Positions 8,917 to 50,920 of a stretch of DNA of 64,000 bases are shown here, piece after piece. The notes beneath the pieces are model-generated. The model did no database searches and was not told the DNA's origin. It saw only the letters and a program-made list of their open reading frames with translations. Numbering within the stretch: the stretch's first letter is position 1; each line of letters opens with the position of its first letter. Origin of the DNA: Candidatus Shapirobacteria bacterium (GTDB lineage Bacteria > Patescibacteriota > Microgenomatia > UBA12405); the NCBI GenBank assembly GCA_041665485.1, contig JBAYIT010000003.1:67146-131145 (forward strand), read 5' to 3'. The position numbers were made by a program, and so were the translations under genes.

Positions 8917-10011
8917 TCAACCAATCTTTACCAGACTCAAATTGTGGGCCGATCCGCCTTCAAACCAATTATTGCCGTGAATTACCAAAGTCACTTTCTT
9001 TTTTGTTAATAATTTTCTCGCCACCAATTCTTCAAAAACTTTATCTTCCTGTCTAAACTCGCTATTTTTAAACACCCTGTAATAGGGGATTATTCCATAG
9101 CTAATTCCCAATTGAGAGAGCTGACTTTGGCTGTCGCTAATTGCAATCACTGGTATCGCCAATCGATAACTGCTAATTATTTTGGCTGTTTTACCGCTTT
9201 TGGTAAACACCACTACCCCGCCAATCTCTTCTTTGCCGATCTTCTTAATTATTTCTACCGCTCCCGCCACCAAGCTATCGCCCAAGTCGTCAGCTTCAAT
9301 TTCCACCTGCCTCAATTCGCCACTTTCCTCGCAGTATCTGGCAATTTTGTCCATTACTTTAACTGCTTCCACCGGGTTTTTGCCAATGGCCGTTTCGTCG
9401 GAAAGCATTATCGAGTCGGTTCCGTCGAAAATAGCATTAGACACGTCGGTGGCTTCTGCCCGAGTCGGTTTCGGGTTCACCGTCATTGACTGCAACATTT
9501 GTGTTGCCACTATCACCGAAGTGTGGTTTTTACGGCAACTATCAATAATTTTTTTCTGGAAAAAACCCAGTTCTTCAATCGGCAAATCCTCGCCCAAATC
9601 GCCTCGGGCCACCATGATTGCTTCTGATTTAGGAATTATTTTTTCAAGTCGACTAAGTGCGGCTCTATTCTCGATTTTGGCGACAATTCCAGCTTTAATT
9701 TTTTTCTTTTCTAGTCTTTGCCTCAAATTATCAACTTCGTTCTCACTTTTCAAATATGATAGGGCCACCAGATCATAGTCCTTGACTTCAATTGGATAGT
9801 CGCTTCTAACAATATCAATCATTATACCTATGTTTTTACCTATCTTTTCAGACATTTTCCTGGCCATCGTAATTTTATCTTGATGCCACTCTTGGGTGTT
9901 GTGCTTCAAATTAAATCGGAAATAATTGGCCCCCGCTTCGATTAAACCCGCCATCATCTCTTTACTGCCTGTTGCTGGTCCTATAGTGGTAATTATTTTT
10001 GTTTTTCGCAT
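8917..10011 (-). CDS. pyk: Pyruvate kinase (short form)
   Basis: Pyruvate kinase signatures are present: KIITTIGPAT, MVARGDLG and a TQMLQSM-like segment. Confidence 0.85.
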   Translation of the reverse strand: MRKTKIITTIGPATGSKEMMAGLIEAGANYFRFNLKHNTQEWHQDKITMARKMSEKIGKNIGIMIDIVRSDYPIEVKDYDLVALSYLKSENEVDNLRQRLEKKKIKAGIVAKIENRAALSRLEKIIPKSEAIMVARGDLGEDLPIEELGFFQKKIIDSCRKNHTSVIVATQMLQSMTVNPKPTRAEATDVSNAIFDGTDSIMLSDETAIGKNPVEAVKVMDKIARYCEESGELRQVEIEADDLGDSLVAGAVEIIKKIGKEEIGGVVVFTKSGKTAKIISSYRLAIPVIAISDSQSQLSQLGISYGIIPYYRVFKNSEFRQEDKVFEELVARKLLTKKKVTLVIHGNNWFEGGSAHNLSLVKIG

Positions 10012-10039
10012 AATTTATTGCTATCATTAATATTACCTT

Positions 10040-11368
10040 ATGTCCCAATACCAAATCATTGGTGGTAATCCCCTCAAAGGTGAAGTTTCTATCCGTGGCG
10101 CCAAAAACGCCTCTTTCAAACAAATCATCGCTTCGATGTTAACCAAAGACACCGTTCATCTCACTAATGTCCCTAGTATCTCTGACGTCCACCTTACTCA
10201 AAGCATCGCTCAAAGTTTAGGTTCTCAAATCAAGCAAGTTGGTCTCCATGGTTTAGAAATAACCACCAAAAAAATCACTAGTTCAATAGTTCCCAGTGGT
10301 ACCGGCGAAAAATCCCGCTCTTCCTTTATGTTTGCTCCGCCCCTTCTACTGCGTACCGGCAAGGCTGTCGTCCCCACTCCCGGCGGTGATAAACTTGGCG
10401 CCCGCCCCCTCGACCGTCTTTTTGATTGTTATAAAAGCATGGGAATTGATGTTGACGTTACCAATAGTTCCATTGCTTTTAAAACAAGCGGTATCAAAGC
10501 CACTCATTATATTTTTCCTCAACCTTCCCACACTGTTACTGAAGTCGTCATTATGACCGCTTCCCTGGCCAAGGGTGATACGGTAATTGAAAATTCAGCC
10601 CGTGAGCCGGAAATCGATGATCTTATAGATATGCTCAATTCCATGGGCGCCAAGATTCAACGCGACCCAAAAAATTTATCCACCATTTACATCACCGGTG
10701 TCTCATCTCTCCATCAAACCGAGCATCAAATAATTGCCGACCGCAACGAATCGGTCACCTTTGCCTGCGCCACTCTGGCCACCAAGGGTTCGATCAATAT
10801 CTTGCGGGTTGACCCTAAAATCATCAACACCTTTCTTGACACTATCACCGCCATGGGCGCTGAAGTTGTCCGTGGCCGCGACGAAGTTACTATTTCCTGG
10901 GTCGGCCCTCTTAAAGCCTGTGATATTGAAACTTCCCCCGAGCCCGGCTTTATGACCGACTGGCAGGCTCTTTTTAGCTTGGTTTTAACTCAAGCCGTTG
11001 GCAGTAGCTCGGTTATCGAGCGGGTTTTCCCCTCCCGTTTTCAGCACATAGCCACCCTTAATCAGATGGGTGCCAAAACTAAGTTTTTTAATCCAACGCC
11101 CGAAGATCCAGCCAAATACTACCATTTCAATCTCGACACTGACAAACCGGAGTATTTCCACGGCGTCAAAATCTACGGCCCAACAAAATTAAAACCAATT
11201 AATCTGACTGTTTCCGACCTCCGTGCTGGCGCCACCGCCACTCTGGCCGCCCTCACTGCCGTCGGCAAATCAACCATTCAGGGAGTCGAATTCATCGAGC
11301 GTGGTTACGAAAATTTGGCCGACCGTCTCCGTTCCCTTGGCGCCCAAATCACTTACATCAAGACTTAG
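10040..11368 (+). CDS. murA: UDP-N-acetylglucosamine 1-carboxyvinyltransferase MurA
   Basis: The N-terminus reads IIGGNPLKGEVSIRGAKNA. The product is 442 aa, an EPT-family length. It diverges from pyk across a 28 bp spacer. Confidence 0.9.
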   Translation: MSQYQIIGGNPLKGEVSIRGAKNASFKQIIASMLTKDTVHLTNVPSISDVHLTQSIAQSLGSQIKQVGLHGLEITTKKITSSIVPSGTGEKSRSSFMFAPPLLLRTGKAVVPTPGGDKLGARPLDRLFDCYKSMGIDVDVTNSSIAFKTSGIKATHYIFPQPSHTVTEVVIMTASLAKGDTVIENSAREPEIDDLIDMLNSMGAKIQRDPKNLSTIYITGVSSLHQTEHQIIADRNESVTFACATLATKGSINILRVDPKIINTFLDTITAMGAEVVRGRDEVTISWVGPLKACDIETSPEPGFMTDWQALFSLVLTQAVGSSSVIERVFPSRFQHIATLNQMGAKTKFFNPTPEDPAKYYHFNLDTDKPEYFHGVKIYGPTKLKPINLTVSDLRAGATATLAALTAVGKSTIQGVEFIERGYENLADRLRSLGAQITYIKT

Positions 11369-13089
11369 CCCGTCTGCAACGCCCAAAACCGGCTATACAA
11401 ACTTTCTTTATCTGCCAATAATTGTCGGTGCGAGCCAACTTCTTTAATTCTCCCTTTTTCCATCACTACAATTTTTTCGGCGCGAACGACTGTCGACAAT
11501 CGGTGGGCAATTACAATTGTTGTTTTGTTTTCCGCCGCTTTCCAAAAAGCCTCCTGAATTAATTTTTCTGATTCCGAATCCAGTTGAGAGGTCGCCTCAT
11601 CAAAAATAATGATTTCCGGATTTTTCAAAATCATTCTGGCAATTGCCAGTCTTTGCTTTTGTCCGCCGGACAGTTTTACTCCTCGCTCGCCCACATTAGT
11701 TTCAAATTTCTGGGGAAGTGTCATTATAAAATCGTAAAGATTAGCCATTTTTGCTGCCGCTATCATTTCCTTTTTGCTGGCTGAACTTCGGCCATAGGTA
11801 ATGTTGTAGCCAATCGTATTATTAAACATAATCGGTTCCTGGGGCACTACTCCCACCATGGCCCTTAAATCACTTTTCCTCATCTCTTTAATATCAATTC
11901 CGTCAATAGTAATTTTTCCCGAATCGGGGTCATAAAACCGCAAAAGTAATTTTACTAAAGTTGTTTTGCCTACTCCCGAATGGCCCACAAATGCCACTGA
12001 CTGGCCTCCTCTGATGTCCAGATTTATCTCTTCCACCGCTTTATTTTTATTTTTTGGGTAAGCAAACCAAATGTTGTCAAATTTTATTTCTCCGGCGACT
12101 TCTCTTATAGTTTTTGGTTTTTTTGGGTCAGCCACTTCCGGTGTTTCGTTTAGAATAGCAAAATATTTTTGAATATCCACCGTATGTTTGGCCACTTGTC
12201 GCAAGTTGTATACCAATTCGAAAAAACGATTATAAAAACTACTCACAAAACCCACCACCATTACAAAACTACCCGTACCTATTTCATCCTGTGTCACCAG
12301 TTTCAAACCATAAATTAGGGCCACTACTAAACCAATATTTCCTAGCCCTCCGATTATGATATCTATCATTCTAAAGCTCATTGAATAATCCCATAATCGC
12401 CGAAACCAGTTTACAAATTTTTTCTGCAACCTCCGCCTTTCCCATTTTTCCCTAGCAAAGAGTTTAACTGTCTCAAAATTAATTAAGTTATCCACAATAA
12501 TATCCGATATTTCATCTTCTACTTGGTTAAATTCTCTTCTGGTTCGAATATTATTTCTTATCAATGATCCTGTTACCGCCAAAGCTATTCCGAAGGTCAT
12601 GAATACGATCAGCCCAATTTCCCATTTAATTTTAACCAAGAAAAAAAGCATTGTTACAAATCCAATTACCACCCTAGTGCTGGAAATGTTGATTGACTGA
12701 AAAAAATCGAAAAATGCTCCGTCGCCCCTTTTGATTAAACTAATTAAAGAGCCGGTACTTTTTGAAGTATGAAAAGCAAAATCCAGATTATGAATTTTTT
12801 CTACCACCGCCATTCTGGCATCACGCGATGCTGGTATTACCGCCTTGTCTCCTGCCGCCCTCATCAAATTATCGCTTAGTAAACCAACCACCCTCACTAG
12901 TCCAAACAATATTAAGACTATAATAGCTTCGGAATAGTTTCTTGTAGGGATAATATCCACAAATAATTTATAGAAATACGGCTCGACTGCTTCCAGTACT
13001 CCATTTAAAATTAAGGCCACCGTAAACACCGCCATTGCCCCTCGGTAACGCCCCAAAAATTTATAGTATGTTTTTAGAATCAACCACAT
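11365..13089 (-). CDS. ABC exporter, fused permease + ATP-binding domains (MsbA/ABCB-like)
   Basis: Six TM helices at the N-terminus are followed by Walker A GHSGVGKTT, the signature LSGGQKQR and Walker B IIIFDEATS. Confidence 0.85.
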   Translation of the reverse strand: MWLILKTYYKFLGRYRGAMAVFTVALILNGVLEAVEPYFYKLFVDIIPTRNYSEAIIVLILFGLVRVVGLLSDNLMRAAGDKAVIPASRDARMAVVEKIHNLDFAFHTSKSTGSLISLIKRGDGAFFDFFQSINISSTRVVIGFVTMLFFLVKIKWEIGLIVFMTFGIALAVTGSLIRNNIRTRREFNQVEDEISDIIVDNLINFETVKLFAREKWERRRLQKKFVNWFRRLWDYSMSFRMIDIIIGGLGNIGLVVALIYGLKLVTQDEIGTGSFVMVVGFVSSFYNRFFELVYNLRQVAKHTVDIQKYFAILNETPEVADPKKPKTIREVAGEIKFDNIWFAYPKNKNKAVEEINLDIRGGQSVAFVGHSGVGKTTLVKLLLRFYDPDSGKITIDGIDIKEMRKSDLRAMVGVVPQEPIMFNNTIGYNITYGRSSASKKEMIAAAKMANLYDFIMTLPQKFETNVGERGVKLSGGQKQRLAIARMILKNPEIIIFDEATSQLDSESEKLIQEAFWKAAENKTTIVIAHRLSTVVRAEKIVVMEKGRIKEVGSHRQLLADKESLYSRFWALQTG

Positions 13090-20893: not shown

Positions 20894-20924
20894 ATTTTGG
20901 TTTTTAAAATTTGATATTTAAAAA

Positions 20925-21980
20925 TTGATTAAAAATTTAAAATTTCAAATTAAAAATTATATTGTCGGATTATCTCCCATGGACGGTGTCACCGACGAAC
21001 CCTTTCGTCTCACCCAGTGCCACATCGCTAAGCCCGACCTGATTTTCACTGAATTCGTTAGTGCTGAAGGCATTTCTCGCGGTGGGGTTAAGCTCTACGA
21101 CCAATTGCTCTATTCAGATTCCGAACGCCCAATTATTGGCCAACTTTTTGGCAAAGACCCCGATAGTTTTTACAAAGCCGGAGTTATTCTCTGCCATCTT
21201 GGCTTTGATGGTATCGATATCAACATGGGTTGTCCTGCCAAAACCGTCACTCATCATGGCTCCGGCGCTGCCCTCATCGGTCAGCCCGAGCTGGCCTCGG
21301 CCATTATTAAAGCCGTCAAATCAGCCGTTTCCGACTTTTCTAAGGGCAAAGTTACTATCAACGACCTAAAACTCAACCAAAAAACAATTGAAGTTATAAA
21401 TAGAAATTTAAAATATTCCGATTACCGGTTACAGATTACTGGTTACCAATTACCAAGCGTCAGCGTCAAAACCCGTCTCGGTCTTGATACCCCCGTTATC
21501 GACACTTGGCTGCCCTTTTTACTCGAGCACCAACTAGATTTTCTCACCCTTCATGGCCGGACTCTCAAACAAGGCTATTCTGGCGAAGCCAATTGGGATT
21601 TGATTGGCGAGGCTGGCAAACTTGCTAAAACATTTGCCACCCCTCTTTTTGGCAACGGTGATCTTCAAACCAAACAACAAGCTTTGGATTATTGTCAAAA
21701 ATATAACCTATCTGGTGCCTTAATTGGCCGTTCTGCTATGGGCAATCCTTGGGCCTTTTCTGATCTCATTCCTTCTTGGGAAGACCGTTTTTCTGCCATG
21801 GTTTTCCATGCCCATAAATTCCAAGAAGTTTTCCCCACTCGTCGTCTCGATTGCCTTCGCCACCATTTTCTTCTTTATGTTTCCGGCCATCCCTGCGCCA
21901 AATCCCTCCGTTCCCAAATCATTAAATTTAATCAAGTCTCCGACCTCTATTCCCTCGAATCCGACCTTCTTAGCTCTTAG
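20925..21980 (+). CDS. dus: tRNA-dihydrouridine synthase (Dus family)
   Basis: Dus motifs are present: LSPMDGVTD, NMGCP and a conserved Lys/Cys context in the TIM-barrel flavoenzyme. Confidence 0.8.
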   Translation: MIKNLKFQIKNYIVGLSPMDGVTDEPFRLTQCHIAKPDLIFTEFVSAEGISRGGVKLYDQLLYSDSERPIIGQLFGKDPDSFYKAGVILCHLGFDGIDINMGCPAKTVTHHGSGAALIGQPELASAIIKAVKSAVSDFSKGKVTINDLKLNQKTIEVINRNLKYSDYRLQITGYQLPSVSVKTRLGLDTPVIDTWLPFLLEHQLDFLTLHGRTLKQGYSGEANWDLIGEAGKLAKTFATPLFGNGDLQTKQQALDYCQKYNLSGALIGRSAMGNPWAFSDLIPSWEDRFSAMVFHAHKFQEVFPTRRLDCLRHHFLLYVSGHPCAKSLRSQIIKFNQVSDLYSLESDLLSS

Positions 21981-21983
21981 TTC

Positions 21984-22421
21984 TTGCTTCTTATCTCTTA
22001 CTTCTCTATAGTAAATTCCATGTCCGATAACCAAAACGCCCAAACAATCTTAAGTCTCGAATCTTTAATCAATAGTTTCGACTCCCGTCTTGAGTCTCTT
22101 ACCAAGGAAGCCAGAACTCACAAGGAAATGCTCCAGTCTCTTCTTGATGGCAATGCCGAATACGTTACTGCCAATGATGCCTCCACCAAAGCCTCCAAAC
22201 TAACCCAAATTGCCAAGCAAAAAGCCCTCAAAGTTCCCGAAGCTGTTACTCTCATCGACAAAATCAAAGACTACCAATCACAAATTAAAGAAGTCAAAGT
22301 TGGCCTCTCTGATTATTTATCCCAATACGTTACCCTTTCTGGCACCACCCAAATCGATTCCCCCGACGGCACCACCAAGCAAATCGTCTACTCCGCCAAG
22401 TTGGTTAAGAAGAAGGGTTAA
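21984..22421 (+). CDS. Hypothetical protein; its last 14 codons are duplicated at 24055..24096
   Basis: It is an ORF only. The C-terminus reads ...TTKQIVYSAKLVKKKG*. Confidence 0.4.
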   Translation: MLLISYFSIVNSMSDNQNAQTILSLESLINSFDSRLESLTKEARTHKEMLQSLLDGNAEYVTANDASTKASKLTQIAKQKALKVPEAVTLIDKIKDYQSQIKEVKVGLSDYLSQYVTLSGTTQIDSPDGTTKQIVYSAKLVKKKG

Positions 22422-23517
22422 CCTTGTCCTCAATCGATTCAAAAATGTACCCCTTATCTTTAATCGTCTTTATTTGATATTTGCCCTTAATCTTATTTTT
22501 CAGTCTCGAAATAGTTTTATAAACTGACCACAGTGAAAAGTCGTCTTCAGCAACGCCCATTAAAAACGCTATTTTATCCTTACTAATGATTTTGCCCTTT
22601 GATTTAACCAGGTAGCTTAATATTGTTTTCTCCCTCTCGCTCAAATCGGGCATTAATTCATCTACATTCTCCGCCTCATATATTTTCAAATAGTATTCCA
22701 ACAGTTTTGCAAATATTTTGTTTTCTCCACTCACCATTCCAATTTTTTCCAATTGGTCAAAAGGAACGTCGATCACTGCCTCTACTAACTCGTTGAGTTT
22801 TATTCTAATCGACGGAAAATTAGACAAAATGTCAAGTTTATCTAAAACTTCCAATCCTAACTCGTCCACACATCGGCCAATATGTTTTACTAGTCCCGGG
22901 TGCCCTCCCGAGAGCTCATAAACTTTTTCGGCCATCGATAAGGGGTAATTGTAGCCATAGTAGTCTTTGTTTATTACTAAAATTCTTTTTGTCCCCTCAA
23001 GGTCAAAAGGAGGAATATACAACAATGTTGAAAATATGGATTTGCCGTGTTTGTAATACACCTCTGGCTGGTAAATTATCGGGTAGTCAGCACTACTTAA
23101 TACCGTCAAGTTGGTTGAGGAAAGGTATCTTAGATGGTAAACAAGCTCAATTGTTTCTTTCTGATCTTTGCCTAAAAAATCTATATGTCTTAAAATCAAA
23201 ATTATTTTTTTGTTTTTAATTTTTTCGGCGAAATCCACAAAGAAATCTCGACTCGGGTCAAGCTCCAGTGTTTTGCTAACCGATGTCTTGATTACTTCGT
23301 AACTATTTTTTGGGTAGGCAAAACACTCAAAAAAGAGAATATTGCTTTTACTGATGTATTTTTCCAACGAGTTCTGAATTGTCTGTAGAAAATATCTCGT
23401 TCCACACCCCGGCATGCCATAAATACAAATGCATTCTCCTTTCAGGAGGGTATTTACCGCCTTTTCGGCTTTATCGCCAAAGTGGCCGGTGGGTAGTTGA
23501 TTAATGATATTTTCCAT
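22405..23517 (-). CDS. Putative transcriptional regulator: degenerate P-loop NTPase domain + OmpR/PhoB-type winged-helix C-terminus
   Basis: The N-terminus has a Walker-A-like GMPGCGTRY with no Lys. The C-terminus, ...YKTISRLKNKIKGKYQIKTIKDKGYIFE, matches the trans_reg_C wing. Confidence 0.45.
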   Translation of the reverse strand: MENIINQLPTGHFGDKAEKAVNTLLKGECICIYGMPGCGTRYFLQTIQNSLEKYISKSNILFFECFAYPKNSYEVIKTSVSKTLELDPSRDFFVDFAEKIKNKKIILILRHIDFLGKDQKETIELVYHLRYLSSTNLTVLSSADYPIIYQPEVYYKHGKSIFSTLLYIPPFDLEGTKRILVINKDYYGYNYPLSMAEKVYELSGGHPGLVKHIGRCVDELGLEVLDKLDILSNFPSIRIKLNELVEAVIDVPFDQLEKIGMVSGENKIFAKLLEYYLKIYEAENVDELMPDLSEREKTILSYLVKSKGKIISKDKIAFLMGVAEDDFSLWSVYKTISRLKNKIKGKYQIKTIKDKGYIFESIEDKVNPSS

Positions 23518-23555
23518 TTTTATTCAAGTCCAATACCTGTCCAAAATAGCAGATA

Positions 23556-24047
23556 TTGAATGTCAACAATGTCCCTAAAGTTCGGATTATAATCGAGAGT
23601 AATTATTACATAATTCTGTCCAAAAGTAAAGAAAACATGCCAAACATCCTCTTAATTTCCCGTTGTTTCATTGAAAAAGCCGGCCAAGTTCTTTTACTGC
23701 ATCGTAGTTCCAAAAGAAAATACAACCCCAATCTTTGGGAGCTTCCCGGAGGCAAGGTTGAGGCTGGGCAAGACATTAATAATGCCACCGAAAGAGAAAT
23801 CCTTGAAGAAACTGGGTTGCTTATAAAAATCATTAGCCCGGTTGCTTTTTCCGAATCCAAAGTTGTCGATCATGGTAAATATAAAGGCATGATTTATCTT
23901 GAGCTCGTCAATCGGGCTATTATCGTTGCCGGTAAAATCAGTTTAGGTGACGATCACGTTGGCTTTGCCTGGGCCAAAAAGAAAGATATTTTTAATTATG
24001 ATTTAAGCCAAGAATCGCGCAAATCCCTCACCTTTTTCCTAAGTTAA
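23556..24047 (+). CDS. NUDIX hydrolase
   Basis: The Nudix box GGKVEAGQDINNATEREILEETGL is present. Confidence 0.75.
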   Translation: MNVNNVPKVRIIIESNYYIILSKSKENMPNILLISRCFIEKAGQVLLLHRSSKRKYNPNLWELPGGKVEAGQDINNATEREILEETGLLIKIISPVAFSESKVVDHGKYKGMIYLELVNRAIIVAGKISLGDDHVGFAWAKKKDIFNYDLSQESRKSLTFFLS

Positions 24048-24054
24048 CCGCACA

Positions 24055-24096
24055 AATTATCTACTCCGCCAAACTAGTTAAGAAGAAAGGATAGTC
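24055..24096 (+). pseudogene. Remnant copy of the 3' end of gene 21984..22421 (encodes QIIYSAKLVKKKG*)
   Basis: About 35 of 42 nt are identical to 22380..22421. The differences are mostly synonymous. A stop codon lies two codons upstream, so it is not part of a longer ORF. Confidence 0.6.
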
Positions 24097-24389
24097 AAGG
24101 GAGGTGTTAATCCTCTCACTTCTACTTCTACCATTCCTTGAGTCGGACACAAGTCGTCTCCCAAGAAAAATCCTGGATTAACTTTCCCTTCCGGTAGTAT
24201 CATTCTGTGTATTTCTCCTTGTACTGGTCTAATCCATTCCAACCCTTCAATATTTGCCACCTGATATCCAGGCACATCTTGCTTTCGGAAACTTAGTCTT
24301 CTGCCAACAACAAAACCAATCACTACTTCCGTTGGTGGTGTCGCAAAGGAAATTGTGTCTCCACTTGTAAAAACTAATCTATCACCCAT
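24078..24389 (-). CDS. Hypothetical protein (103 aa)
   Basis: It is an ORF only. Confidence 0.35.
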   Translation of the reverse strand: MGDRLVFTSGDTISFATPPTEVVIGFVVGRRLSFRKQDVPGYQVANIEGLEWIRPVQGEIHRMILPEGKVNPGFFLGDDLCPTQGMVEVEVRGLTPPLTILSS

Positions 24390-24589
24390 GCTCTGTTTAT
24401 ATCAAACTACCTCTTTTTTGTCAGCCAGTAGATGATTCCGCCCACAATCCCGGCAAACATTGTCACAATTATTCCCAAAAGTATTGTCGTCGTCCCTTCT
24501 TGCATAAAATAATTATAGTTTAAAAATTAGAAATTTTAAATTGAATAAAAATTTCAAATTAAAAATTAAAAATTAGATATAATGGTCCA

Positions 24590-25546
24590 ATGTTAATCGA
24601 CGAATCCCGCATCACTGTCAAAGCCGGCAACGGCGGTAAAGGCCTGGTTCACTTCTTTACCGACAAATCCCGCCCCAAAGGTGGCCCCGACGGTGGTAAT
24701 GGTGGCGCTGGTGGTAATCTCTACTTTAAGGCCGTCAGCGACATTAGCCGTCTTCATCAGTTTCGTCATAAGCGCATTTTCCAGGCTCCCAATGGCGACC
24801 CGGGTGGCCCCAATCAGCGCACCGGCCACGATGGCGCCGATCTTACCCTGGAAATTCCTATTGGCACCATTGTTCATTACGACAATGGCTCAATTATTGA
24901 ATTTACCAAGGTCGGTCAAACCGAAATTATTGTCAAAGGTGGTAAAGGCGGTCGGGGCAACTATCATTTCAGAAGCTCCACCAACCAAACCCCCCAAGAG
25001 TCCGAGCCGGGAATTAAGCCACTTCCCAGAAACCTTTTTATTGAATTAAAGTTAATCGCCAATGTTGGCCTAATTGGCCTGCCTAATGCCGGTAAAACTA
25101 GTCTTTTAAACGAGCTGACTTCCGCCAACGCCAAAGTCGCCAACTACCCCTTCACCACCCTCGAGCCCAATCTTGGCGTCACTAAAGGCGGTAAAGTTAT
25201 CGCCGATATCCCGGGCCTGATTGAAGGCGCCACTACCGGTCACGGTCTTGGATCAAAGTTTCTTAAGCACATCGAACGCACCAATCTCTTGGTCCACTGC
25301 CTTTCCCTTGAGTCTCAAAATCTTTCCGTCGACTACCAAACCATTCGCCATGAGTTAGAAAGTTACAGCACTGCTTTAGCCAAAAAGCCAGAAATTATTA
25401 TCCTAACCAAGTCTGATTTAGTCGACCCCAAAGATATCAAAAGTCTCTTAAAATCCACTAAAGCCGTTTTGGCTGTCTCCATTGCCGACGATCAAAGTAT
25501 TAAAGCTCTAAACGACCTAATTGCTCTCAAACTAGACTCTTTTTAA
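24590..25546 (+). CDS. obg: GTPase Obg/CgtA
   Basis: The Obg fold N-terminus is Gly-rich (GGKGGDGGNGG). G1 is GLPNAGKT. DIPG and TKSD motifs follow. Confidence 0.9.
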   Translation: MLIDESRITVKAGNGGKGLVHFFTDKSRPKGGPDGGNGGAGGNLYFKAVSDISRLHQFRHKRIFQAPNGDPGGPNQRTGHDGADLTLEIPIGTIVHYDNGSIIEFTKVGQTEIIVKGGKGGRGNYHFRSSTNQTPQESEPGIKPLPRNLFIELKLIANVGLIGLPNAGKTSLLNELTSANAKVANYPFTTLEPNLGVTKGGKVIADIPGLIEGATTGHGLGSKFLKHIERTNLLVHCLSLESQNLSVDYQTIRHELESYSTALAKKPEIIILTKSDLVDPKDIKSLLKSTKAVLAVSIADDQSIKALNDLIALKLDSF

Positions 25547-39499: not shown

Positions 39500-40138
39500 T
39501 TAATTAACCACATTAATTTTTGTAGGTATTGTCCTAAGCTTCTTTACGTTTGGAACCATTATATTATCCCGATGAAACAACAAAATCTTATCTGAACTCA
39601 TAATTAGTACTTTCGACCCATTTTTTGGTTTAGTCATCTGTTTAGTATTCTGTTCATTTCCAAACTCATTTAATAACGCCTCCATCTTTTGCGTTTGGTT
39701 TGGAAATATTAAGTAAGTTGAAAGCTCTTTTAGAAAAACCCACTTAATGTTTCTGATTTCTTCTTCCTGAGGCTTTAAGTCCATTTCTTCACCTAAAAAT
39801 TTCACCAAAAACTGGACTCTTTCTTGGCCACGGTAAACTGATTTATTTTCAGCTATCTTTTTGTTTATTACCTCATCGGGCCATTCATACCGATCCACCT
39901 GCTCACTAACCTTAATTACCTCAAATTTATCACTACCCAATTCTTCATTCAATTCTCTGATTATTGCGTTTCTTGGTGTCTCACCCTCAATAATCCCTCC
40001 GCCAGGTATATCCCATTCATTATCTTTATAGCTACTTTTTTGGACAATCAGAATCCGGCCCGATTTATCCAATATTACAGCACTGGTACTCTGTCTGTAA
40101 GTTAAATTATCACGATAAATTTTCTGAGCATTATCCAT
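39500..40138 (-). CDS. NUDIX hydrolase (with C-terminal extension)
   Basis: The Nudix box GGGIIEGETPRNAIIRELNEELG is present. Confidence 0.7.
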   Translation of the reverse strand: MDNAQKIYRDNLTYRQSTSAVILDKSGRILIVQKSSYKDNEWDIPGGGIIEGETPRNAIIRELNEELGSDKFEVIKVSEQVDRYEWPDEVINKKIAENKSVYRGQERVQFLVKFLGEEMDLKPQEEEIRNIKWVFLKELSTYLIFPNQTQKMEALLNEFGNEQNTKQMTKPKNGSKVLIMSSDKILLFHRDNIMVPNVKKLRTIPTKINVVN

Positions 40139-40191
40139 AAGTTAATTATATAAGTAATGTTTAATCCAACAATTTTCTCCCGCTCTTACTT

Positions 40192-40668
40192 TCATTTTGA
40201 ACTCAAACTATTATCAAATGTTTGTATCCACCCATTCCACTTTTCATTATTCATTTCCGTTTCTTCAAAATTATTGTTGGTGAACTCGGCAATAAACTTT
40301 AACCAGAAGGTGTGAGCCTTTGGATTTTCCCTTATTTGTCTATTTTCCCATTTGCCCGGTGATTGGGTAAATACTAACCTAGCTGCTTCTGACCCAATTC
40401 CGTTTTTTCTAAATTCTTTTTTAACATAAAACTCGGAAATTGTTTTTCCCTCTGTCAATACCAACAAGTATGAATTTATTAGGGCAAATCCGGCTATTTT
40501 TCCGTCGACCTTTATGAAATATGGATACCTGTTCGGTTTCTCCCAATATGAATCTAAATATTTATATTCTTCTGCTTTTTCACCTACCATTTCTTTCTCA
40601 TAATCCCAAAGCATGTCACTCAAAATTTTTTTATCGGCAATATCAATTAAAACTATTTCAATTTTCAT
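40192..40668 (-). CDS. GNAT-family N-acetyltransferase
   Basis: Motif A is VKKEFRKNGIGSEAARLV. The fold length is about 158 aa. Confidence 0.6.
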   Translation of the reverse strand: MKIEIVLIDIADKKILSDMLWDYEKEMVGEKAEEYKYLDSYWEKPNRYPYFIKVDGKIAGFALINSYLLVLTEGKTISEFYVKKEFRKNGIGSEAARLVFTQSPGKWENRQIRENPKAHTFWLKFIAEFTNNNFEETEMNNEKWNGWIQTFDNSLSSK

Positions 40669-41641
40669 GGTTGATTATAACCCAGTATATAATTACCCAT
40701 ATATGCACATCATTTATCTTTCCGGTGGTAGCCTTCGCAACAAAACTTGGATTGAAACTATCAAATCAAATTTTGACACCTTTTCTGATGGTCAAATTCT
40801 TTATTACGACCATTGGCAAACCGGAGAGAAAAATCTAAATTTTGAAATTGAATCTCAGAAATTAGCTGAATTGGTTAAAGATAAGGATGAATATTTTGTT
40901 TTCGCTAAATCCATTGGTTCAATTCTGGCTCTAAAAAGTATTTATGAAAAAACAATCAATCCAAAAAGAATGATAATTTGCGGTCATCCCTATAATCTGA
41001 CCAAAGAGTTAGGCTTTCCAGTAAATGATTACCTAAAATATCTGGCTGTTCCCACCATGTTTATCCAAAACGAGTTTGATCTCCTATTTAACTATGTCGA
41101 TTTGGAAAAAGTTTTAAAAGAAAACAGTCCGGTGGACTATCAGCTAATCAAAAACCCGGATAATAATACTCATGATTACGAGGATTTTGAACAATTGGCT
41201 GAATTATCTAAAATATATTTTGGAGATGAAGACAAACAAGTCCATCTTGGAAAGATTTATACCACTTTGGACATTGTTGCCAAAAAACTTAACTCTCTAG
41301 ACATCAAATGGTTTTTGGGTGCTAGTGGCGCTTTAATGGTTCATGGCGTAAATATTGTTCCATGGGACATTGATGTTTTAACCACTTCTGAAAATATTGA
41401 TATTATTGCCAAAGAATTCGAAAAGTTTTTAGTTAGTACCGACGATGATGGATTATTTTTAAAGATTAATGGAATAGAAGTTGAGATAATAAAATTAAAT
41501 GATCTTGGTGATCCCACTCCAACATTATTTCAAAATAATTTAATCCCTGTAAATACGCTCAAAAACGAATTGTATTATTACGAACAACGCCCCGGAAAAG
41601 AAAACACTATTAGATTAATAAAAGAAAAGTTAGGTATTTAA
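40667..41641 (+). CDS. Fusion protein: alpha/beta-hydrolase-like N-domain + ANT(2'')-like minimal nucleotidyltransferase C-domain
   Basis: The C-terminus carries GASGALMVHGVNIVPWDIDV (the Pol-beta NTase motif hG[GS]x10DhD), then EVEII. The N-terminus has GHPY and a serine-hydrolase-like AKSIGS. The start is uncertain; Met at 40667 or 40700 is plausible. Confidence 0.45.
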   Translation: MVDYNPVYNYPYMHIIYLSGGSLRNKTWIETIKSNFDTFSDGQILYYDHWQTGEKNLNFEIESQKLAELVKDKDEYFVFAKSIGSILALKSIYEKTINPKRMIICGHPYNLTKELGFPVNDYLKYLAVPTMFIQNEFDLLFNYVDLEKVLKENSPVDYQLIKNPDNNTHDYEDFEQLAELSKIYFGDEDKQVHLGKIYTTLDIVAKKLNSLDIKWFLGASGALMVHGVNIVPWDIDVLTTSENIDIIAKEFEKFLVSTDDDGLFLKINGIEVEIIKLNDLGDPTPTLFQNNLIPVNTLKNELYYYEQRPGKENTIRLIKEKLGI

Positions 41642-41650
41642 GAATATTCA

Positions 41651-42157
41651 TTGTTTATGAATCTAACTCCTAAAATTAGAAAAGCATTGCGAGTGGCTGC
41701 AACCCAACATGATGGTCAGTACCGCAAAGACGGTGTCACCCCATTTATCATTCACCCGTTCGAAGTCGCTATGATTGTCTCGGAATATACCAACGATGAG
41801 GATATTATTAGTTCTGCCTTACTTCATGATGTATTGGAGGATACTCAAGGTTATTCTTACGAAAGACTAATAGAGGACTTTGGCAATAAAGTGGCCGATA
41901 TCGTTCAATCATTAACTGACAAACCATTACCTGATTTAACTTGGAATGATAAGCATATTAAATACTTGGAAAACTTAAAACATAGTAGTGATGAATCTGT
42001 CTTAATTTGTTTGGCAGATAAATATTCTAATGTATCCACGGGACCGGTGGATCAAAATAGGGTTTGGTATTACCAAGGAGTGATTAATGTGGCCAAAGAG
42101 AGAAAACTGACCAAAGATACTAAATTATTAGAAGATTTTGAAGATTTAATTAAATGA
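41651..42157 (+). CDS. HD-domain phosphohydrolase, RelA/SpoT-hydrolase-like (small alarmone hydrolase/Mesh1-like)
   Basis: The HD core reads RKDGVTPFIIHPFEVAMIV...HDVLEDT, as in the (p)ppGpp hydrolase domain. Confidence 0.65.
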   Translation: MFMNLTPKIRKALRVAATQHDGQYRKDGVTPFIIHPFEVAMIVSEYTNDEDIISSALLHDVLEDTQGYSYERLIEDFGNKVADIVQSLTDKPLPDLTWNDKHIKYLENLKHSSDESVLICLADKYSNVSTGPVDQNRVWYYQGVINVAKERKLTKDTKLLEDFEDLIK

Positions 42158-42729
42158 ACCAGGGTATAAATTTAGATATAGCTAAGAAAACAGTTGCGTG
42201 GGGCACTAAATCAGACATGCCCCGACTAATTATTTTGATGGGTCTTCCTGGCTCGGGAAAATCGTATGTTTCTTCTTATCTCCATGACAAACACGGTTTT
42301 ACGATTTTATCCGGAGAAAACATCACCTTTGCACTTTTTGGTAAGGTTGACTGCACGGGTAGCGAATATTCTCTAGCTTACGACATTTTACGTCAATTGG
42401 CTATTAAGTTAATTTCCCAAGGTTATTCGGTTGTTATTGATGGTACCAATTTAAAATATATTTTTCGTCAACAAATTTATGATGATGTAAATTGTCCCAA
42501 CACCACTCTTTTATTTCTCAAAGTTGACGATAAAACCGCTTTAAACAGAATCTCACAAAGGGGAATTGATTATCAGAACGAAAAAGATATTAGAAGCTCA
42601 ATTTCGACAGAAGTATTCAAAAAATTTAAAAGCCAAACAGAAGAACCTCTACCCAGAGAAAATTCCATCACTCTAATTTCTGACGATAACTTGTTTCCCC
42701 AAATTGACGCAGTTTTTAGAGTAAAATAG
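42154..42729 (+). CDS. P-loop kinase, AAA_33/polynucleotide-kinase-like
   Basis: Walker A is IILMGLPGSGKSY. The downstream VVIDGTN motif resembles Pnkp/zeta-toxin-type kinases. It is translationally coupled to the HD gene. Confidence 0.6.
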   Translation: MNQGINLDIAKKTVAWGTKSDMPRLIILMGLPGSGKSYVSSYLHDKHGFTILSGENITFALFGKVDCTGSEYSLAYDILRQLAIKLISQGYSVVIDGTNLKYIFRQQIYDDVNCPNTTLLFLKVDDKTALNRISQRGIDYQNEKDIRSSISTEVFKKFKSQTEEPLPRENSITLISDDNLFPQIDAVFRVK

Positions 42730-42733
42730 AGTC

Positions 42734-43189
42734 ATGTCTAATCAGGTTGATATTTCTAAATTACATTCGGTGATAGTTAATGCTGTTGTCGAAAAAGACG
42801 GCAAGATTTTAGTATCACAGCGAAGCTTCGAAGAAGCTCATGAACCAGGAAAATGGACTATCCCGGGTGGCAAGATTGACAAGACTGAAGGTAATATTTT
42901 CAATATTATCGAAAAAACTTGTGCCAGAGAAATCGAAGAAGAAACAGGGATTAAGATTAAAGAAAATATTCAATTAATGACCAACAATACATTTATTAGG
43001 TCAAATGGCCAACACGTCATTGCCTTAATTTGTCTTTGTCACTGGGAATCAGGTGAGGCTCAGGCTTTAGAAGACACCATCGGCATAAAATGGATATCTA
43101 AAGATGAAATCGACAAGTTCGATTTTGCCCCAAACGTCAAAGGATATATTGAGATGGGATTTGAAAAATTAAACAAAATGAAGGTTTAA
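42734..43189 (+). CDS. NUDIX hydrolase
   Basis: The Nudix box PGGKIDKTEGNIFNIIEKTCAREIEEETGI is present. Confidence 0.75.
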   Translation: MSNQVDISKLHSVIVNAVVEKDGKILVSQRSFEEAHEPGKWTIPGGKIDKTEGNIFNIIEKTCAREIEEETGIKIKENIQLMTNNTFIRSNGQHVIALICLCHWESGEAQALEDTIGIKWISKDEIDKFDFAPNVKGYIEMGFEKLNKMKV

Positions 43190-48807: not shown

Positions 48808-49902
48808 ATGCAAAAAAGAAAGGGGGGTAAACCCAGAATATTATCTTTATTTTCCGGGTGCGGAGGGCTGGACTTAGGATTCGTACAAGAAGACTTTAGG
48901 ATTGTTTGGGCAAATGATTTTTATCATCCTGCTTGCGAAACATATAAGAACAACTTTGGTGACCACATTTTCGAAAGAGATATTACCGAAGTCGATTTTA
49001 AAAATCTTCCGGACTGCGATATTATCACGGGAGGGTTTCCTTGTCAGGATTTTTCAATGATTTGGAAGCGGGGAGGTATCGGCACCGATAGGGGCAATTT
49101 ATATAAATATTTTGTTAAAGCAGTATCCGCAAAGTTACCCAAAATATTTGTTGCAGAGAATGTTAAAGGTCTCCTCACCGCGAATAAAGGAATGGCGATA
49201 AAACAAATCGTTGAAGATTTTCAAAAGATCGATCATTCGGGTTATAGAATTTATATTAATCTATATAACTTTGCAGAATACGGAGTACCTCAATTAAGAG
49301 AAAGGGTCATTATTGTGGGTGTAAGGAGCGACATCCCCTTTAAGTTTCGTAAACCTGCTCCAATCCGTAGTCAAAATAATTACGTGACCTCTAAAGAAGC
49401 CCTTAAAGACGTTGAAAAAGTTGTATATAACAATGAGCACATAAATATAATGGAAAGGACTAAAAAAATAATAAGTTTAATTCCGCCGGGAGGAAATTTT
49501 ACCGATATACCAAAAGACAGCCCTTATTACGTAAAGGGAATGATAAGCCACGTATATAGGAGACTCCATCCGGACAAGCCCTCGACAACGATAATTGCAG
49601 GCGGTGGTGGCGGTACATGGGGTTATCATTTCAATGAACCTAGACCATTAACAAACAGAGAAAGAGCTCGATTATTCGGATATCCGGACGATTTCATATT
49701 CACAGGTTCTGTCGCTGAAGTTAGAAAGCAAATTGGTAACTCAGTTCCGCCTCCGGGGGCCAGAGCAGTAGCGAAAGAAATAAAAAAGCTCTTTAAAGAA
49801 ACGTTTACGCCGGTAAATGTGAACAATTTAAGACCATTATCCGGGGATGCGTTAAAATACATTAGTTATGATGAATCGGGAGAGCTTAAACTAAAAAAAT
49901 AA
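48808..49902 (+). CDS. DNA (cytosine-5)-methyltransferase
   Basis: Motif I is LFSGCGGLDLGF, motif IV is GGFPCQDFS, motif VI is ENVKGLL and the motif IX/X region is RERARLFGYPDDFIF. Confidence 0.9.
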   Translation: MQKRKGGKPRILSLFSGCGGLDLGFVQEDFRIVWANDFYHPACETYKNNFGDHIFERDITEVDFKNLPDCDIITGGFPCQDFSMIWKRGGIGTDRGNLYKYFVKAVSAKLPKIFVAENVKGLLTANKGMAIKQIVEDFQKIDHSGYRIYINLYNFAEYGVPQLRERVIIVGVRSDIPFKFRKPAPIRSQNNYVTSKEALKDVEKVVYNNEHINIMERTKKIISLIPPGGNFTDIPKDSPYYVKGMISHVYRRLHPDKPSTTIIAGGGGGTWGYHFNEPRPLTNRERARLFGYPDDFIFTGSVAEVRKQIGNSVPPPGARAVAKEIKKLFKETFTPVNVNNLRPLSGDALKYISYDESGELKLKK

Positions 49903-49903
49903 T

Positions 49904-50920
49904 ATGCTATGGAATAATGTCGACACTTTAGGCGGAGATTTTATAAATCAAGTAGACACAGAGTTTGGCGATGCCCTTGGAGTAACAATCGCTTCGGGAT
50001 ATGTTTCTTTGGATATTATCAATAAGTATTATTCTAATTTTCAAACAATTTCACAAAACGGAGGGTCGTCAAGATTGTTGGTTGGAATGGCCTTTTATGA
50101 GGGATTGTCAGCAAATAAACTGTCATTGTTGACTAGTCTTAATAATCAATTAAAACAAACAAATGAAAATAACGGAGTATTTGTGAGCTACAATGGAAAA
50201 TTCCATGGGAAAATATACCAGTTCGACAAAGACGCAGGAAAATCCTACTATTTAGGATCGTCGAATTTTTCCAGAAGCGGTTTATCTGGAAACATTGAAT
50301 GTACAGCATCCATTTCTGATTCGGACACACAATCGAGACTAAGTACATTTATAGGCTACTTATTCTTGCCAGAAAATGCCATCCATATTGATAAGGCGGA
50401 AATTGTAGTACCCGGAAGTTCAGAATATCGACAAAAAATGGCGATTACTCTCGACGATCTTGAAAAATACGATCCAGCAACTGTCGATAAGTCGATCCTC
50501 CCAATTTTTGAATTCCCTCTTTCGCGTATTGCCAATAAAGAAAAGTCAAATTTAAACGCGTATTTTGGGAAGGGTCGATGGTCAAGGGCAACTGGAAAAA
50601 TCGTTCCTAGGCCCTGGTATGAAGTCGAATTAATAGCCGACAGTAGTGTTCGAGGTACTCCGTTATACCCTAGAGGCGATTTTAAAGCATATACCGATGA
50701 CGGATATATTATCCCAATGGTAACCAACGGAGACTACGATAAAAATATAAGATCCAAAAGTAATTTAAAGATACTTGGCCAATGGATAAAGAACAAACTT
50801 CAAAAAAGCGGTGCATTACTCCCGTTAATGCCGGTCACTCAAGATACTTTGGACGCATATGGACGAAGTTCTATAAACTTCTACAAAATAAGGGATGGTA
50901 AATACTACATGGAGTTTTAA
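49904..50920 (+). CDS. PLD-family restriction endonuclease (BfiI/NgoAVII-like: N-terminal HKD catalytic domain + C-terminal DNA-binding domain)
   Basis: The HKD motif is HGKIYQFDKDAGKSYYLGSSNFS. It lies directly downstream of the MTase with a 1-nt spacer, and the product is 338 aa. Confidence 0.5.
   Translation: MLWNNVDTLGGDFINQVDTEFGDALGVTIASGYVSLDIINKYYSNFQTISQNGGSSRLLVGMAFYEGLSANKLSLLTSLNNQLKQTNENNGVFVSYNGKFHGKIYQFDKDAGKSYYLGSSNFSRSGLSGNIECTASISDSDTQSRLSTFIGYLFLPENAIHIDKAEIVVPGSSEYRQKMAITLDDLEKYDPATVDKSILPIFEFPLSRIANKEKSNLNAYFGKGRWSRATGKIVPRPWYEVELIADSSVRGTPLYPRGDFKAYTDDGYIIPMVTNGDYDKNIRSKSNLKILGQWIKNKLQKSGALLPLMPVTQDTLDAYGRSSINFYKIRDGKYYMEF

What the first reader, a model, noticed from the sequence alone, without database searches (positions are those of the whole stretch)
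22380..24096. Duplicated gene 3' end brackets a two-gene cassette (AAA-wHTH regulator + NUDIX)
The last ~42 nt of gene 21984..22421 (encoding ...QIVYSAKLVKKKG*) reappear at 24055..24096 (encoding QIIYSAKLVKKKG*). About 35 of 42 nt match, and the changes are mostly synonymous. The 1.6 kb between the copies carries a regulator and a NUDIX hydrolase. The regulator's stop overlaps the intact gene's end. A duplicated gene 3' end is the classic footprint of site-specific integration into a gene terminus. No integrase remains, so this may be a decayed integrative element or a cassette acquired by another mechanism.
Basis: seen in the sequence. Interest (0 to 1): 0.55.

Follow-up and report, generated by a model that had tools for sequence, protein, structure and literature searches.

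The report
Recombination scar: leftover gene tail
A 42-base copy of the end of a conserved gene sits 1.6 kb downstream of the real gene end in an uncultured Shapirobacteria genome; it is a leftover from a second, diverged version of that gene, most likely a scar of ordinary recombination between related strains, with no sign of a decayed integrating element.

Summary
The repeat is real. The last 42 nt of gene X (22380-22421) recur at 24053-24094, 2 nt left of the stated coordinates, with 34/42 identical. There are only two copies in the window, none expected by chance, and the same sequence appears in four independent assemblies. Seven of the eight differences keep the peptide and the stop. 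Random changes would do that in fewer than 1 in 1000 trials. So the second copy is the tail of a different, once-functional X allele, not an in-situ duplication.

Context weakens the integrative-element reading. No integrase or transposase domain was found in any window ORF tested. No X tail is duplicated in 87 other loci, apart from one assembly-like tandem repeat. There are no phage or plasmid relatives. The regulator's small family also lies in this interval in two related species.

71 of 80 species carry Dus-X-Trx-(RlmN)-Obg. Only the window's subclade has a remodelled, strain-variable interval. X is itself mosaic: its last 85 nt are 94% identical to one relative, against 76% just upstream. 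The relic keeps the neighbours an X tail has in relatives (orphan ORF, then a small membrane-peptide gene). Its last 17 nt supply the stop of ORF103.

Best reading: a scar of RecA-type recombination, homologous on one side and illegitimate on the other. This is a known kind of event and of modest interest.

The parts
20925..21980 (+). Dus (tRNA dihydrouridine synthase), the conserved left flank
   Evidence: Pfam PF01207, E 7e-46. Precedes X in most of the 80 species loci.
22020..22421 (+). Gene X: 133-aa coiled-coil-like protein conserved in Shapirobacteria, with no Pfam, NCBIfam or PDB match
   Evidence: 160 homologues with a highly conserved C-terminus QI[VI]Y[ST]AKLVKK. No family hits.
22337..22421 (+). 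Mosaic tract: the last 85 nt of X, unusually close to the L001 lineage
   Evidence: 94.1% identity to L001, against 76.5% in the preceding 81 nt. Fisher p=0.0016; max-chi2 permutation p=0.0135.
22380..22421 (+). Copy 1: the functional 3' end of X, including the TAA stop
22405..23517 (-). REG: ORC/Cdc6-like AAA+ ATPase fused to an OmpR-type winged helix. Its last codons (..NPSS*) and stop are read from the antisense of copy 1
   Evidence: Pfam Trans_reg_C. PDB profile hits to ORC1/Cdc6 and OmpR-family domains. Its tail after the conserved GY is 13 residues, against 2-9 in homologues.
23518..23636 (.). AT-rich (30% GC) divergent intergenic region between REG and NUDIX, with promoter-like sites
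23637..24047 (+). NUDIX hydrolase, similar to NudI or pyrimidine (d)NTP diphosphatase. It occupies the divergent-partner position that HD-dTMP kinase holds in four related loci
   Evidence: Pfam NUDIX, E 5e-15. NCBIfam NudI, 2e-15, below the curated cutoff. Partner comparison.
24043..24049 (+). GTTAACC at the NUDIX stop, identical to the 7-mer spanning the X stop (22417-22423). Possible microhomology at the illegitimate joint
   Evidence: Read directly from the sequence. My rough chance estimate is 0.03-0.05, so it is only suggestive.
24053..24094 (+). Copy 2: relic of the 3' end of a second, diverged X allele. Not translatable on its own
   Evidence: 34/42 identical; 7 of 8 differences are synonymous or stop-to-stop. 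No start codon in the 31 open codons upstream.
24078..24389 (-). ORF103: a lineage-specific orphan ORF whose last codons (..ILSS*) and stop lie in the relic
   Evidence: Only self-hits among 5.8 billion proteins. Only two weak matches to giant proteins among 1.84 billion representatives. AlphaFold pLDDT 46.
24407..24505 (-). 32-aa membrane-peptide gene, conserved in the subclade upstream of the orphan slot
   Evidence: DNA match to L003 at 87%. Homologues in L004 and L006.
24590..25546 (+). Obg GTPase, the conserved right flank
   Evidence: Pfam GTP1_OBG, E 6e-47.

Best explanation
The 42-nt second copy is a fossil of the 3' end of another allele of gene X. It was left behind when two diverged Shapirobacteria versions of the Dus-X...Obg locus were spliced together by the cell's general recombination machinery, not by an integrase.

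The most likely route is homology-facilitated illegitimate recombination (HFIR). DNA from a related lineage carried X(3' part)-REG-NUDIX. It paired homologously within X, with a crossover about 85 nt before the stop. Its far end was joined illegitimately 42 nt before the resident X stop. That deleted the intervening piece of the resident gene and pushed the resident tail downstream.

The mirror-image event fits nearly as well: relic-ORF103-peptide gene arrives as the incoming block, anchored on the obg side. A single crossover of a circularised fragment is a third variant.

The relic has no att function. Its last 17 nt now serve as the C-terminal codons and stop of ORF103. REG likewise terminates in the antisense of the intact tail.

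Shown: the repeat, the selection-shaped differences, the mosaic X, the variable interval, and the absence of mobile-element genes. Inferred: the direction of transfer, the donor, and the enzymology.
For: 1. Two alleles, not an in-situ duplication. The 8 differences give 1 conservative amino-acid change (V to I, also seen in homologues) and keep the stop. Eight random substitutions achieve this in 8e-5 to 6e-4 of simulations. Copy-to-copy identity (81%) equals whole-gene X identity between the window and its nearest relatives (82-85%). The relic shares ATT-ATC with the L003 tail, and a TAG stop with both L001 and L003.

2. Homologous exchange at this spot. X is mosaic: 94.1% to L001 over the last 85 nt against 76.5% just upstream.

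3. The interval is a replacement hot spot in this subclade only. 71 of 80 species have X-Trx-(RlmN)-Obg. The window, L001, L003, L004 and L006 each have different content directly after the X stop.

4. The relic keeps the native neighbourhood of an X tail. Tail, then orphan, then membrane-peptide gene is also seen in L003 and L004.

5. No mobile-element machinery. No integrase or transposase was found in the window ORFs tested. There are no viral or plasmid relatives. No bracket repeats surround REG modules elsewhere.

6. REG-family genes lie in the same interval in L004 and L006, and the block's GC matches that family and the genome. A related Shapirobacterium is therefore a plausible donor.

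7. HFIR is defined by one homologous end, an illegitimate joint with 3-10 bp microhomology, and an insertion coupled to a deletion (PMC3240628). A possible ACC/GTTAACC microhomology sits at the joint. ComEC-type competence genes occur in related Shapirobacteria loci.
Against: - No donor-like genome (X abutting REG-NUDIX without a relic) and no empty-site genome (X directly converging on an ORF103 homologue) was found.
- The closest relatives are about 83% identical in DNA and lie on 1.8-2.5 kb contigs.
- The mosaic signal rests on three sequences. The exchange could have happened in the L001 or L003 lineage instead.
- The relic does not clearly group with any one relative (33-34 of 42 to all three).
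- The microhomology could be chance (my estimate 0.03-0.05).
- HFIR and natural transformation have not been shown in these uncultured bacteria.
- Both joints are remarkably tight to gene ends, which random illegitimate joining does not predict without invoking selection.
Confidence: 0.55

Rival explanations
1. Decayed integrase-mediated integrative element. An element carrying a replacement X tail in its attP integrated into the 3' end of X. The copies are attL and attR. The integrase and the rest of the element were later deleted.
For: A direct repeat of a gene 3' end ending exactly at the stop codon brackets the block. The differences are synonymous, as expected if an element must restore the target gene. 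A 13-14 nt identical run (TCTACTCCGCCAA) could be a crossover core. REG modules occupy at least five different chromosomal contexts in Shapirobacteria.
Against: No recombinase domain was found in any window ORF tested. REG overlaps one repeat and NUDIX stops 5 nt before the other, so there is no room for arm sites. No second use of this site appears in 87 loci. No repeats surround other REG modules. There are no phage or plasmid homologues. The cargo is of the same kind as genes found in this interval in relatives. The GC content is not anomalous.
Confidence: 0.12
2. Same recombination chemistry, opposite direction. The resident locus was X-REG-NUDIX-Obg. The incoming DNA was the right-hand block (42 nt of a foreign X tail, ORF103 and the membrane-peptide gene), anchored homologously in or upstream of obg and joined illegitimately after NUDIX.
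For: Tail, orphan and peptide gene form a contiguous unit in L003 and L004. The relic shares ATT-ATC with the L003 tail. The peptide-gene region is 87% identical to L003, against 79-82% for Dus and X. ORF103 has atypical codon composition, GC3 0.29.
Against: It leaves the 94% tract at the X 3' end, directly adjacent to the REG block, as an unrelated event. No right-flank sequence from close relatives is available to test for an anchor tract.
Confidence: 0.2
3. Remnant of a deleted paralogue. The ancestor carried two full X genes flanking REG-NUDIX, and the second was deleted except for its last 42 nt.
For: This would also give selection-shaped differences between the copies.
Against: No genome among 87 loci has two X genes. 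The one exception, L012, is a 100%-identical 3427-nt tandem repeat running from mid-Dus to mid-Obg and looks like an assembly artefact. This scenario needs a duplication, long co-existence and a precise deletion.
Confidence: 0.05
4. The X tail is a specific capture site (attI-like, or used by a recombinase encoded elsewhere). Lineage-specific ORFs and blocks are inserted there, and the relic marks a copied or moved capture site.
For: Every lineage of the subclade has different, unrelated ORFs starting or ending within about 10 nt of the X stop. The slot is sharply bounded on the other side about 10-13 nt past the peptide-gene stop. An 8-bp palindrome, GGTTAACC, spans the X stop in the window.
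Against: Similarity must end where a conserved gene ends, so sharp boundaries are expected anyway. The tail is not conserved at synonymous sites across the family. No recombinase was found, and no shared motif or inverted repeat occurs at the orphan borders.
Confidence: 0.05
5. In-situ duplication (a long target-site duplication or replication slippage) followed by neutral decay, or a chance match.
For: Direct repeats flank an insert.
Against: 42 nt is far longer than known target-site duplications. There are no terminal inverted repeats and no transposase. Neutral decay would not spare the reading frame (p<=6e-4). A chance match is excluded.
Confidence: 0.02

Closest known systems
Homology-facilitated illegitimate recombination (HFIR) in naturally transformable bacteria (S. 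pneumoniae, A. baylyi, P. stutzeri; reviewed in PMC3240628)
   Same: An insertion of about 1-2 kb is coupled to deletion of resident DNA. One side is homologous (the mosaic tract in X) and the other is an illegitimate joint with possible 3-7 nt microhomology. No mobile-element genes are needed.
   Different: It has never been demonstrated in CPR/Patescibacteria. Donor and direction are inferred here. Both joints sit unusually tight against gene ends.
attL/attR duplication of a gene 3' end by integrase-encoding prophages and genomic islands
   Same: A direct repeat of the target gene's 3' end brackets the insert, and the target gene stays intact.
   Different: There is no integrase, no arm regions, only a 13-14 nt identical run, cargo of a kind found in this interval in relatives, and no reuse of the site in other genomes.
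C-terminal displacement in Rhs/CDI loci and T6SS effector-immunity arrays (PMC5361080, which also cites Jackson et al. 2009, PMC2935791)
   Same: An incoming block displaces the old 3' end of the upstream gene, and that end persists downstream as an orphan fragment. HFIR was proposed there as the mechanism.
   Different: Those systems swap variable toxin C-termini together with immunity genes. X has an almost invariant C-terminus, the relic is only 42 nt, and no toxin-immunity logic is evident.
Campbell-type single crossover of a circularised fragment (RecA-dependent; PMC3240628)
   Same: It produces a direct duplication of the shared segment on both sides of the insert, exactly the geometry seen here.
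   Different: The shared segment would be only 42 nt at 81% identity, with 14 nt or less of perfect match. To my knowledge that is well below what RecA normally needs.

Membership tests
Integrase-mediated integrative element at a gene 3' end | Direct repeats (attL/attR) flanking the element, with an identical crossover core | tested here: inconclusive
   A 42-nt repeat is present, 34/42 identical, with a longest perfect run of 13-14 nt.
Integrase-mediated integrative element at a gene 3' end | A tyrosine or serine recombinase gene in or beside the element | tested here: not met
   The block holds only REG and NUDIX. No recombinase Pfam hit in any window ORF tested.
Integrase-mediated integrative element at a gene 3' end | The same att site is used again, or an empty site exists, in related genomes | tested here: not met
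   No second X tail in 87 loci except the artefact-like L012. No empty site found. Four assemblies are identical.
Integrase-mediated integrative element at a gene 3' end | Mobile-element cargo or relatives in phages or plasmids | tested here: not met
   REG has no relative in the viral, phage or plasmid collections, and NUDIX none in viral contigs. The three X-tail pattern matches in viral contigs are chance hits outside any X-like gene. PHROG and PADLOC return only generic wHTH or NUDIX similarity.
Homology-facilitated illegitimate recombination scar | A homologous anchor tract adjoining the insert | tested here: inconclusive
   The last 85 nt of X are 94% identical to L001, against 76% upstream (p=0.0016). 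The lineage in which the exchange occurred cannot be assigned.
Homology-facilitated illegitimate recombination scar | An illegitimate joint with 3-10 bp microhomology | tested here: inconclusive
   ACC/GTTAACC lies at the NUDIX-relic joint, but the parental sequences are unknown.
Homology-facilitated illegitimate recombination scar | Insertion coupled to deletion of resident DNA | not testable with these tools
   This is implied by only 42 nt of the second allele surviving. It needs the pre-insertion haplotype.
Homology-facilitated illegitimate recombination scar | DNA uptake and RecA pathway in the organism | not tested
   ComEC-type 'Competence' domains appear in related Shapirobacteria loci. 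None was seen in this window, and the rest of the genome is not available.
Transposon target-site duplication | A short identical duplication, terminal inverted repeats and a transposase | tested here: not met
   42 nt with selection-shaped differences. No inverted repeats at the block ends. No transposase.
Rhs/T6SS-type C-terminal displacement array | A polymorphic C-terminal toxin domain with a cognate immunity gene | tested here: not met
   The X C-terminus is nearly invariant across 38 aligned homologues. The downstream genes are a regulator and a NUDIX hydrolase.

The most novel reading that the evidence does not exclude
The 3' end of gene X is a dedicated capture or exchange site in this Shapirobacteria subclade. 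Unrelated orphan ORFs and small gene blocks are repeatedly installed there, either by a recombinase encoded elsewhere or by a sequence-directed, integrase-free route. The relic would then be a copied capture site that still accepts cargo (ORF103). That would be a first gene-capture system described in CPR bacteria.
Probability: 0.06. Interest if true: 0.65.

Novelty: new member of a known kind. Interest (0 to 1): 0.3.

Why it matters
Taken as a scar, it is a clean natural example of gene content changing in an uncultured, streamlined CPR bacterium without mobile-element machinery. Two diverged alleles of one locus were spliced together, and the leftover tail records the joint. It also shows that recombination between lineages about 80-85% identical reaches into a conserved core neighbourhood (Dus-X...Obg). 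It flags that interval as a strain-variable hot spot. It does not reveal a new type of element. The practical lesson is that a duplicated gene end alone is weak evidence for an integrase-borne island.

Tried and rejected
- **GC dip as evidence of foreign DNA:** rejected. REG homologues in L004 and L006 are equally low in GC (0.33-0.35), and the window mean is 0.40.
- **A second X tail in L012 as a parallel case:** rejected. It is a perfect 3427-nt tandem repeat from mid-Dus to mid-Obg, typical of an assembly artefact.
- **Bracket repeats around REG modules in L090, L091, L004 and L006:** none of 24 nt or more brackets a module.
- **Viral contigs:** scanned for REG, NUDIX and an X-tail pattern. 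The only three hits are chance matches outside any X-like gene.
- **Phage and plasmid collections:** no REG match.
- **PADLOC and PHROGs:** only generic NUDIX or wHTH similarity.
- **Rfam:** nothing near the repeat.
- **RNA folding of both copies and flanks:** no better than shuffles, z between -1.3 and +0.1. The terminator-like hairpin at 24099-24117 is therefore unsupported.
- **ORF103:** AlphaFold gave pLDDT 46. An exhaustive HMMER search found no family. Whether it is a real gene remains open.
- **Metagenome scan with the REG alignment:** returned only the two loci already known.
- **A REG paralogue elsewhere in the window (40613-41641):** rejected by BLASTP.
- **Assigning the relic to one relative's allele:** inconclusive, at 33-34 of 42 to all three.
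- **Orthology of the window's REG with the L004/L006 REG:** unresolved. The window's REG is a deep lone branch, 38-44% identical to all family members.
Full report
**1. The observation**

The window is from a Candidatus Shapirobacteria (CPR/Patescibacteria) genome. Gene X's product is 100% identical to NCBI protein WCV93_04425.

Gene X runs 22020-22421 and encodes 133 aa. The upstream TTG at 21984 is not used by homologues. X ends ...CAAATCGTCTACTCCGCCAAGTTGGTTAAGAAGAAGGGTTAA. The sequence CAAATTATCTACTCCGCCAAACTAGTTAAGAAGAAAGGATAG lies at 24053-24094.

A degenerate 31-mer covering both copies hits only these two places in 64 kb, with zero hits in 100 shuffles. Between the copies lie an AAA+/winged-helix regulator, REG (22405-23517, minus strand; Pfam Trans_reg_C), and a NUDIX hydrolase (23637-24047, plus strand). 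A 4.7-kb stretch is 100% identical in two long contigs (ENA, JGI). It is also identical over two shorter Logan contigs of 3.6 and 2.6 kb. Assembly error is therefore excluded.

**2.

Both copies are used on the opposite strand. REG ends ..NPSS* with its stop at 22405-22407, 17 nt inside copy 1. ORF103 (24078-24389, minus strand) ends ..ILSS* with its stop at 24078-24080, 17 nt inside copy 2.

The antisense of ..GTT AAG AAG.. contains a TAA. Any minus-strand ORF running into an X tail in that frame stops there. The same 17-nt overlap is seen with unrelated ORFs in L001 and L003.

**3. The copies are two alleles**

The eight differences comprise seven transitions, and six are at third codon positions. 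They change one residue (V to I, a variant also found in homologues) and turn TAA into TAG. Placing eight random substitutions on copy 1 leaves at most one amino-acid change and an intact stop in only 8e-5 to 6e-4 of 200,000 trials.

Copy 2 therefore diverged while it was part of a working X gene. It has decayed very little since. It has no start codon in the 31 open codons upstream and is not itself a gene.

Its distance from copy 1 (81% identity) matches the distance between whole X genes of the window and its nearest relatives (82-85%). It shares ATT-ATC with L003, TAG with both L001 and L003, and the TCC codon with the window's own tail. This rules out an in-situ duplication or a target-site duplication.

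**4. Comparative context**

A scan of one genome per GTDB species returned 80 loci.

| Arrangement after X | Loci |
|---|---|
| Trx directly after X (55 of these also have RlmN) | 71 |
| RlmN only | 1 |
| Contig ends after X | 1 |
| Distant relatives (X 33-38% identical) with other contexts | 6 |
| REG family member | 1 |

The canonical order is RRM-Dus-X-Trx-(RlmN)-Obg-YtxH.

Only the window's subclade differs, and every member differs from the others directly after the X stop:

- **Window:** X, REG (minus), NUDIX (plus), relic, ORF103 (minus), a 32-aa membrane-peptide gene (24407-24505, minus), Obg.
- **L003 (X 89% identical):** X, orf127, orf120, peptide gene, then the contig ends.
- **L001 (88%):** an extra 193-aa ORF before X and an unrelated 113-aa ORF after it.
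- **L004 (67%):** X, orf118, peptide gene, REG, HD-dTMP kinase, Obg.
- **L006 (67%):** X, peptide gene, REG, HD-dTMP kinase, Obg.

The small ORFs are unrelated to each other. ORF103 has no homologue in 5.8 billion proteins or 1.84 billion representatives.

The relic therefore sits where an X tail normally sits: next to an orphan ORF and the peptide gene. Relative to L004 and L006, the REG block is on the other side of that unit.

**5. Is REG-NUDIX a mobile cassette?**

REG belongs to a tiny family: 12 clusters, with the best match at 43% identity. It has an ORC/Cdc6-like AAA+ N-terminus and an OmpR-type winged helix.

In L004, L006, L090 and L091 it is divergently paired with an HD-dTMP kinase fusion. 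The window has a NudI-like NUDIX in that position. REG is therefore probably a regulator of nucleotide house-cleaning or salvage genes. This is an inference from gene order.

The module lies in at least five different chromosomal contexts. The window's REG is a deep lone branch, not specifically sister to the L004/L006 copies. So it has moved on evolutionary time scales.

Nothing marks it as an element:

- No repeats bracket it elsewhere.
- It has no relatives in viral, phage or plasmid collections.
- Its low GC (0.365) is shared by the family (0.33-0.35), and the window mean is 0.40.
- No integrase, transposase or excisionase domain occurs in any window ORF of 110 aa or more that was tested.
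- The block fills the space between the repeats completely. REG overlaps copy 1, and its tail is longer than in any homologue because it reads through to the antisense stop. NUDIX stops 5 nt before copy 2. No room remains for attP arms.

**6. Evidence for general recombination at this spot**

With L001 and L003 as references, X is mosaic. The window is 84% identical to L001 over nt 1-236, 76.5% over nt 237-317 (where it is 89% identical to L003), and 94.1% over the last 85 nt (80% to L003). Fisher's test gives p=0.0016, and a max-chi2 permutation gives p=0.0135.

A recombination tract therefore starts about 85 nt before the X stop and runs up to the boundary with the REG block.

In the L004/L006 pair, the X protein is identical while REG is only 62-64% identical. 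A 470-nt indel begins 8 nt after the X stop. The interval behaves like a replacement hot spot flanked by conserved genes.

**7. Mechanism**

The simplest account is homology-facilitated illegitimate recombination. It has one homologous end, and an illegitimate joint that usually shows 3-10 bp microhomology. The insertion is coupled to a deletion of similar size (PMC3240628).

Incoming DNA from a related lineage (X 3' part-REG-NUDIX) would have crossed over inside X. Its far end would have joined 42 nt before the resident stop. This deleted the resident stretch in between and left the resident tail as the relic.

GTTAACC spans the X stop (22417-22423) and recurs at the NUDIX stop (24043-24049), 3 nt from the relic. 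ACC also precedes the tail in every X gene. Either could be the microhomology. My chance estimate of 0.03-0.05 is not negligible.

The mirror event, with relic-ORF103-peptide gene incoming and anchored near obg, cannot be excluded. No close relative covers the right flank. A single crossover of a circularised fragment gives the same geometry. It would have to work on 42 nt at 81% identity.

A comparable pattern has been described for Rhs loci and Vibrio T6SS effector-immunity arrays. There an old 3' end is pushed downstream by an incoming block, and HFIR was likewise proposed (PMC5361080). X differs from those cases because its C-terminus is invariant rather than polymorphic.

**8. Verdict**

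The repeat is an insertion or replacement footprint at a gene terminus. The evidence favours an integrase-free recombination scar between diverged alleles over a decayed integrative element.

It is a new example of a known kind of event, in a poorly studied lineage. Interest is modest at 0.3.

One more unusual reading remains open: that the X tail is a dedicated capture site for orphan genes. It has little support. The tail is not conserved at synonymous sites, and no motif is shared at the orphan borders.

Noticed in passing
window 24078-24505; L003 1035-1880; L004 10415-10973; L006 10415-10543: A strain-variable slot lies between the X stop and a conserved 32-39 aa membrane-peptide gene. It holds 0, 1 or 2 minus-strand orphan ORFs (103-127 aa). 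These are unrelated to each other and to anything in the databases. Homology between strains stops within about 10 nt of the X stop and about 10-13 nt past the peptide-gene stop.
   Followed up: partly
window 22337-22421 (X nt 318-402): Gene X is mosaic. Its last 85 nt are 94% identical to L001, against 76.5% in the preceding 81 nt, where the window instead resembles L003 (89%). This indicates homologous exchange between lineages about 80-85% identical.
   Followed up: yes
L004 vs L006 (X 10001-10414; REG 10962-12056 / 10543-11619): Two strains share an identical X protein, but their adjacent REG proteins are only 62-64% identical. L004 has a 470-nt insertion that starts 8 nt after the X stop.
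   Followed up: partly
window 22416-22423 and 24043-24049: The 8-bp palindrome GGTTAACC spans the X stop codon. The 7-mer GTTAACC recurs at the NUDIX stop, 3 nt before the relic. This may be junction microhomology or chance.
   Followed up: partly
window 20903-20962 and 24519-24578: A 60-nt AT-rich sequence is 80% identical upstream of dus and upstream of obg. The obg copy overlaps a good promoter-like site for the divergent peptide gene (TTTAAA-17-TATAAT, 24540-24512, minus strand).
   Followed up: no
L012 2748-9600: A perfect 3427-nt tandem duplication runs from mid-dus to mid-obg in a GTDB representative MAG (CAZJUH010000008.1). It is most likely an assembly artefact.
   Followed up: partly
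REG family: window 22405-23517; L004, L006, L090, L091, L092, L093: A very small Shapirobacteria-restricted family (12 clusters among 5.8 billion proteins) of ORC/Cdc6-like AAA+ plus OmpR-type winged-helix proteins. In four loci it is divergently paired with an HD-dTMP kinase fusion, and in the window with a NUDIX hydrolase. It is a candidate regulator of nucleotide salvage or house-cleaning.
   Followed up: partly
window 39500-43189: A second cluster of nucleotide house-cleaning-type genes: NUDIX, GNAT acetyltransferase, a 342-aa protein with no Pfam hit, an HD domain protein, an AAA_33 kinase and another NUDIX. These NUDIX genes are only 26-29% identical to the one in the finding.
   Followed up: partly
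window 48808-50920 and 51984-56184: A C5 cytosine methyltransferase with an NgoFVII-like restriction enzyme. Next to it lie a VirB4/TraG-like P-loop ATPase and a protein with a T4SS pilin domain.
   Followed up: no
L001 928-1509: A 193-aa minus-strand ORF is inserted between dus and X in one close relative only. Its GC is 0.51, against 0.46 for the contig, and it is rich in G, P and R residues.
   Followed up: no
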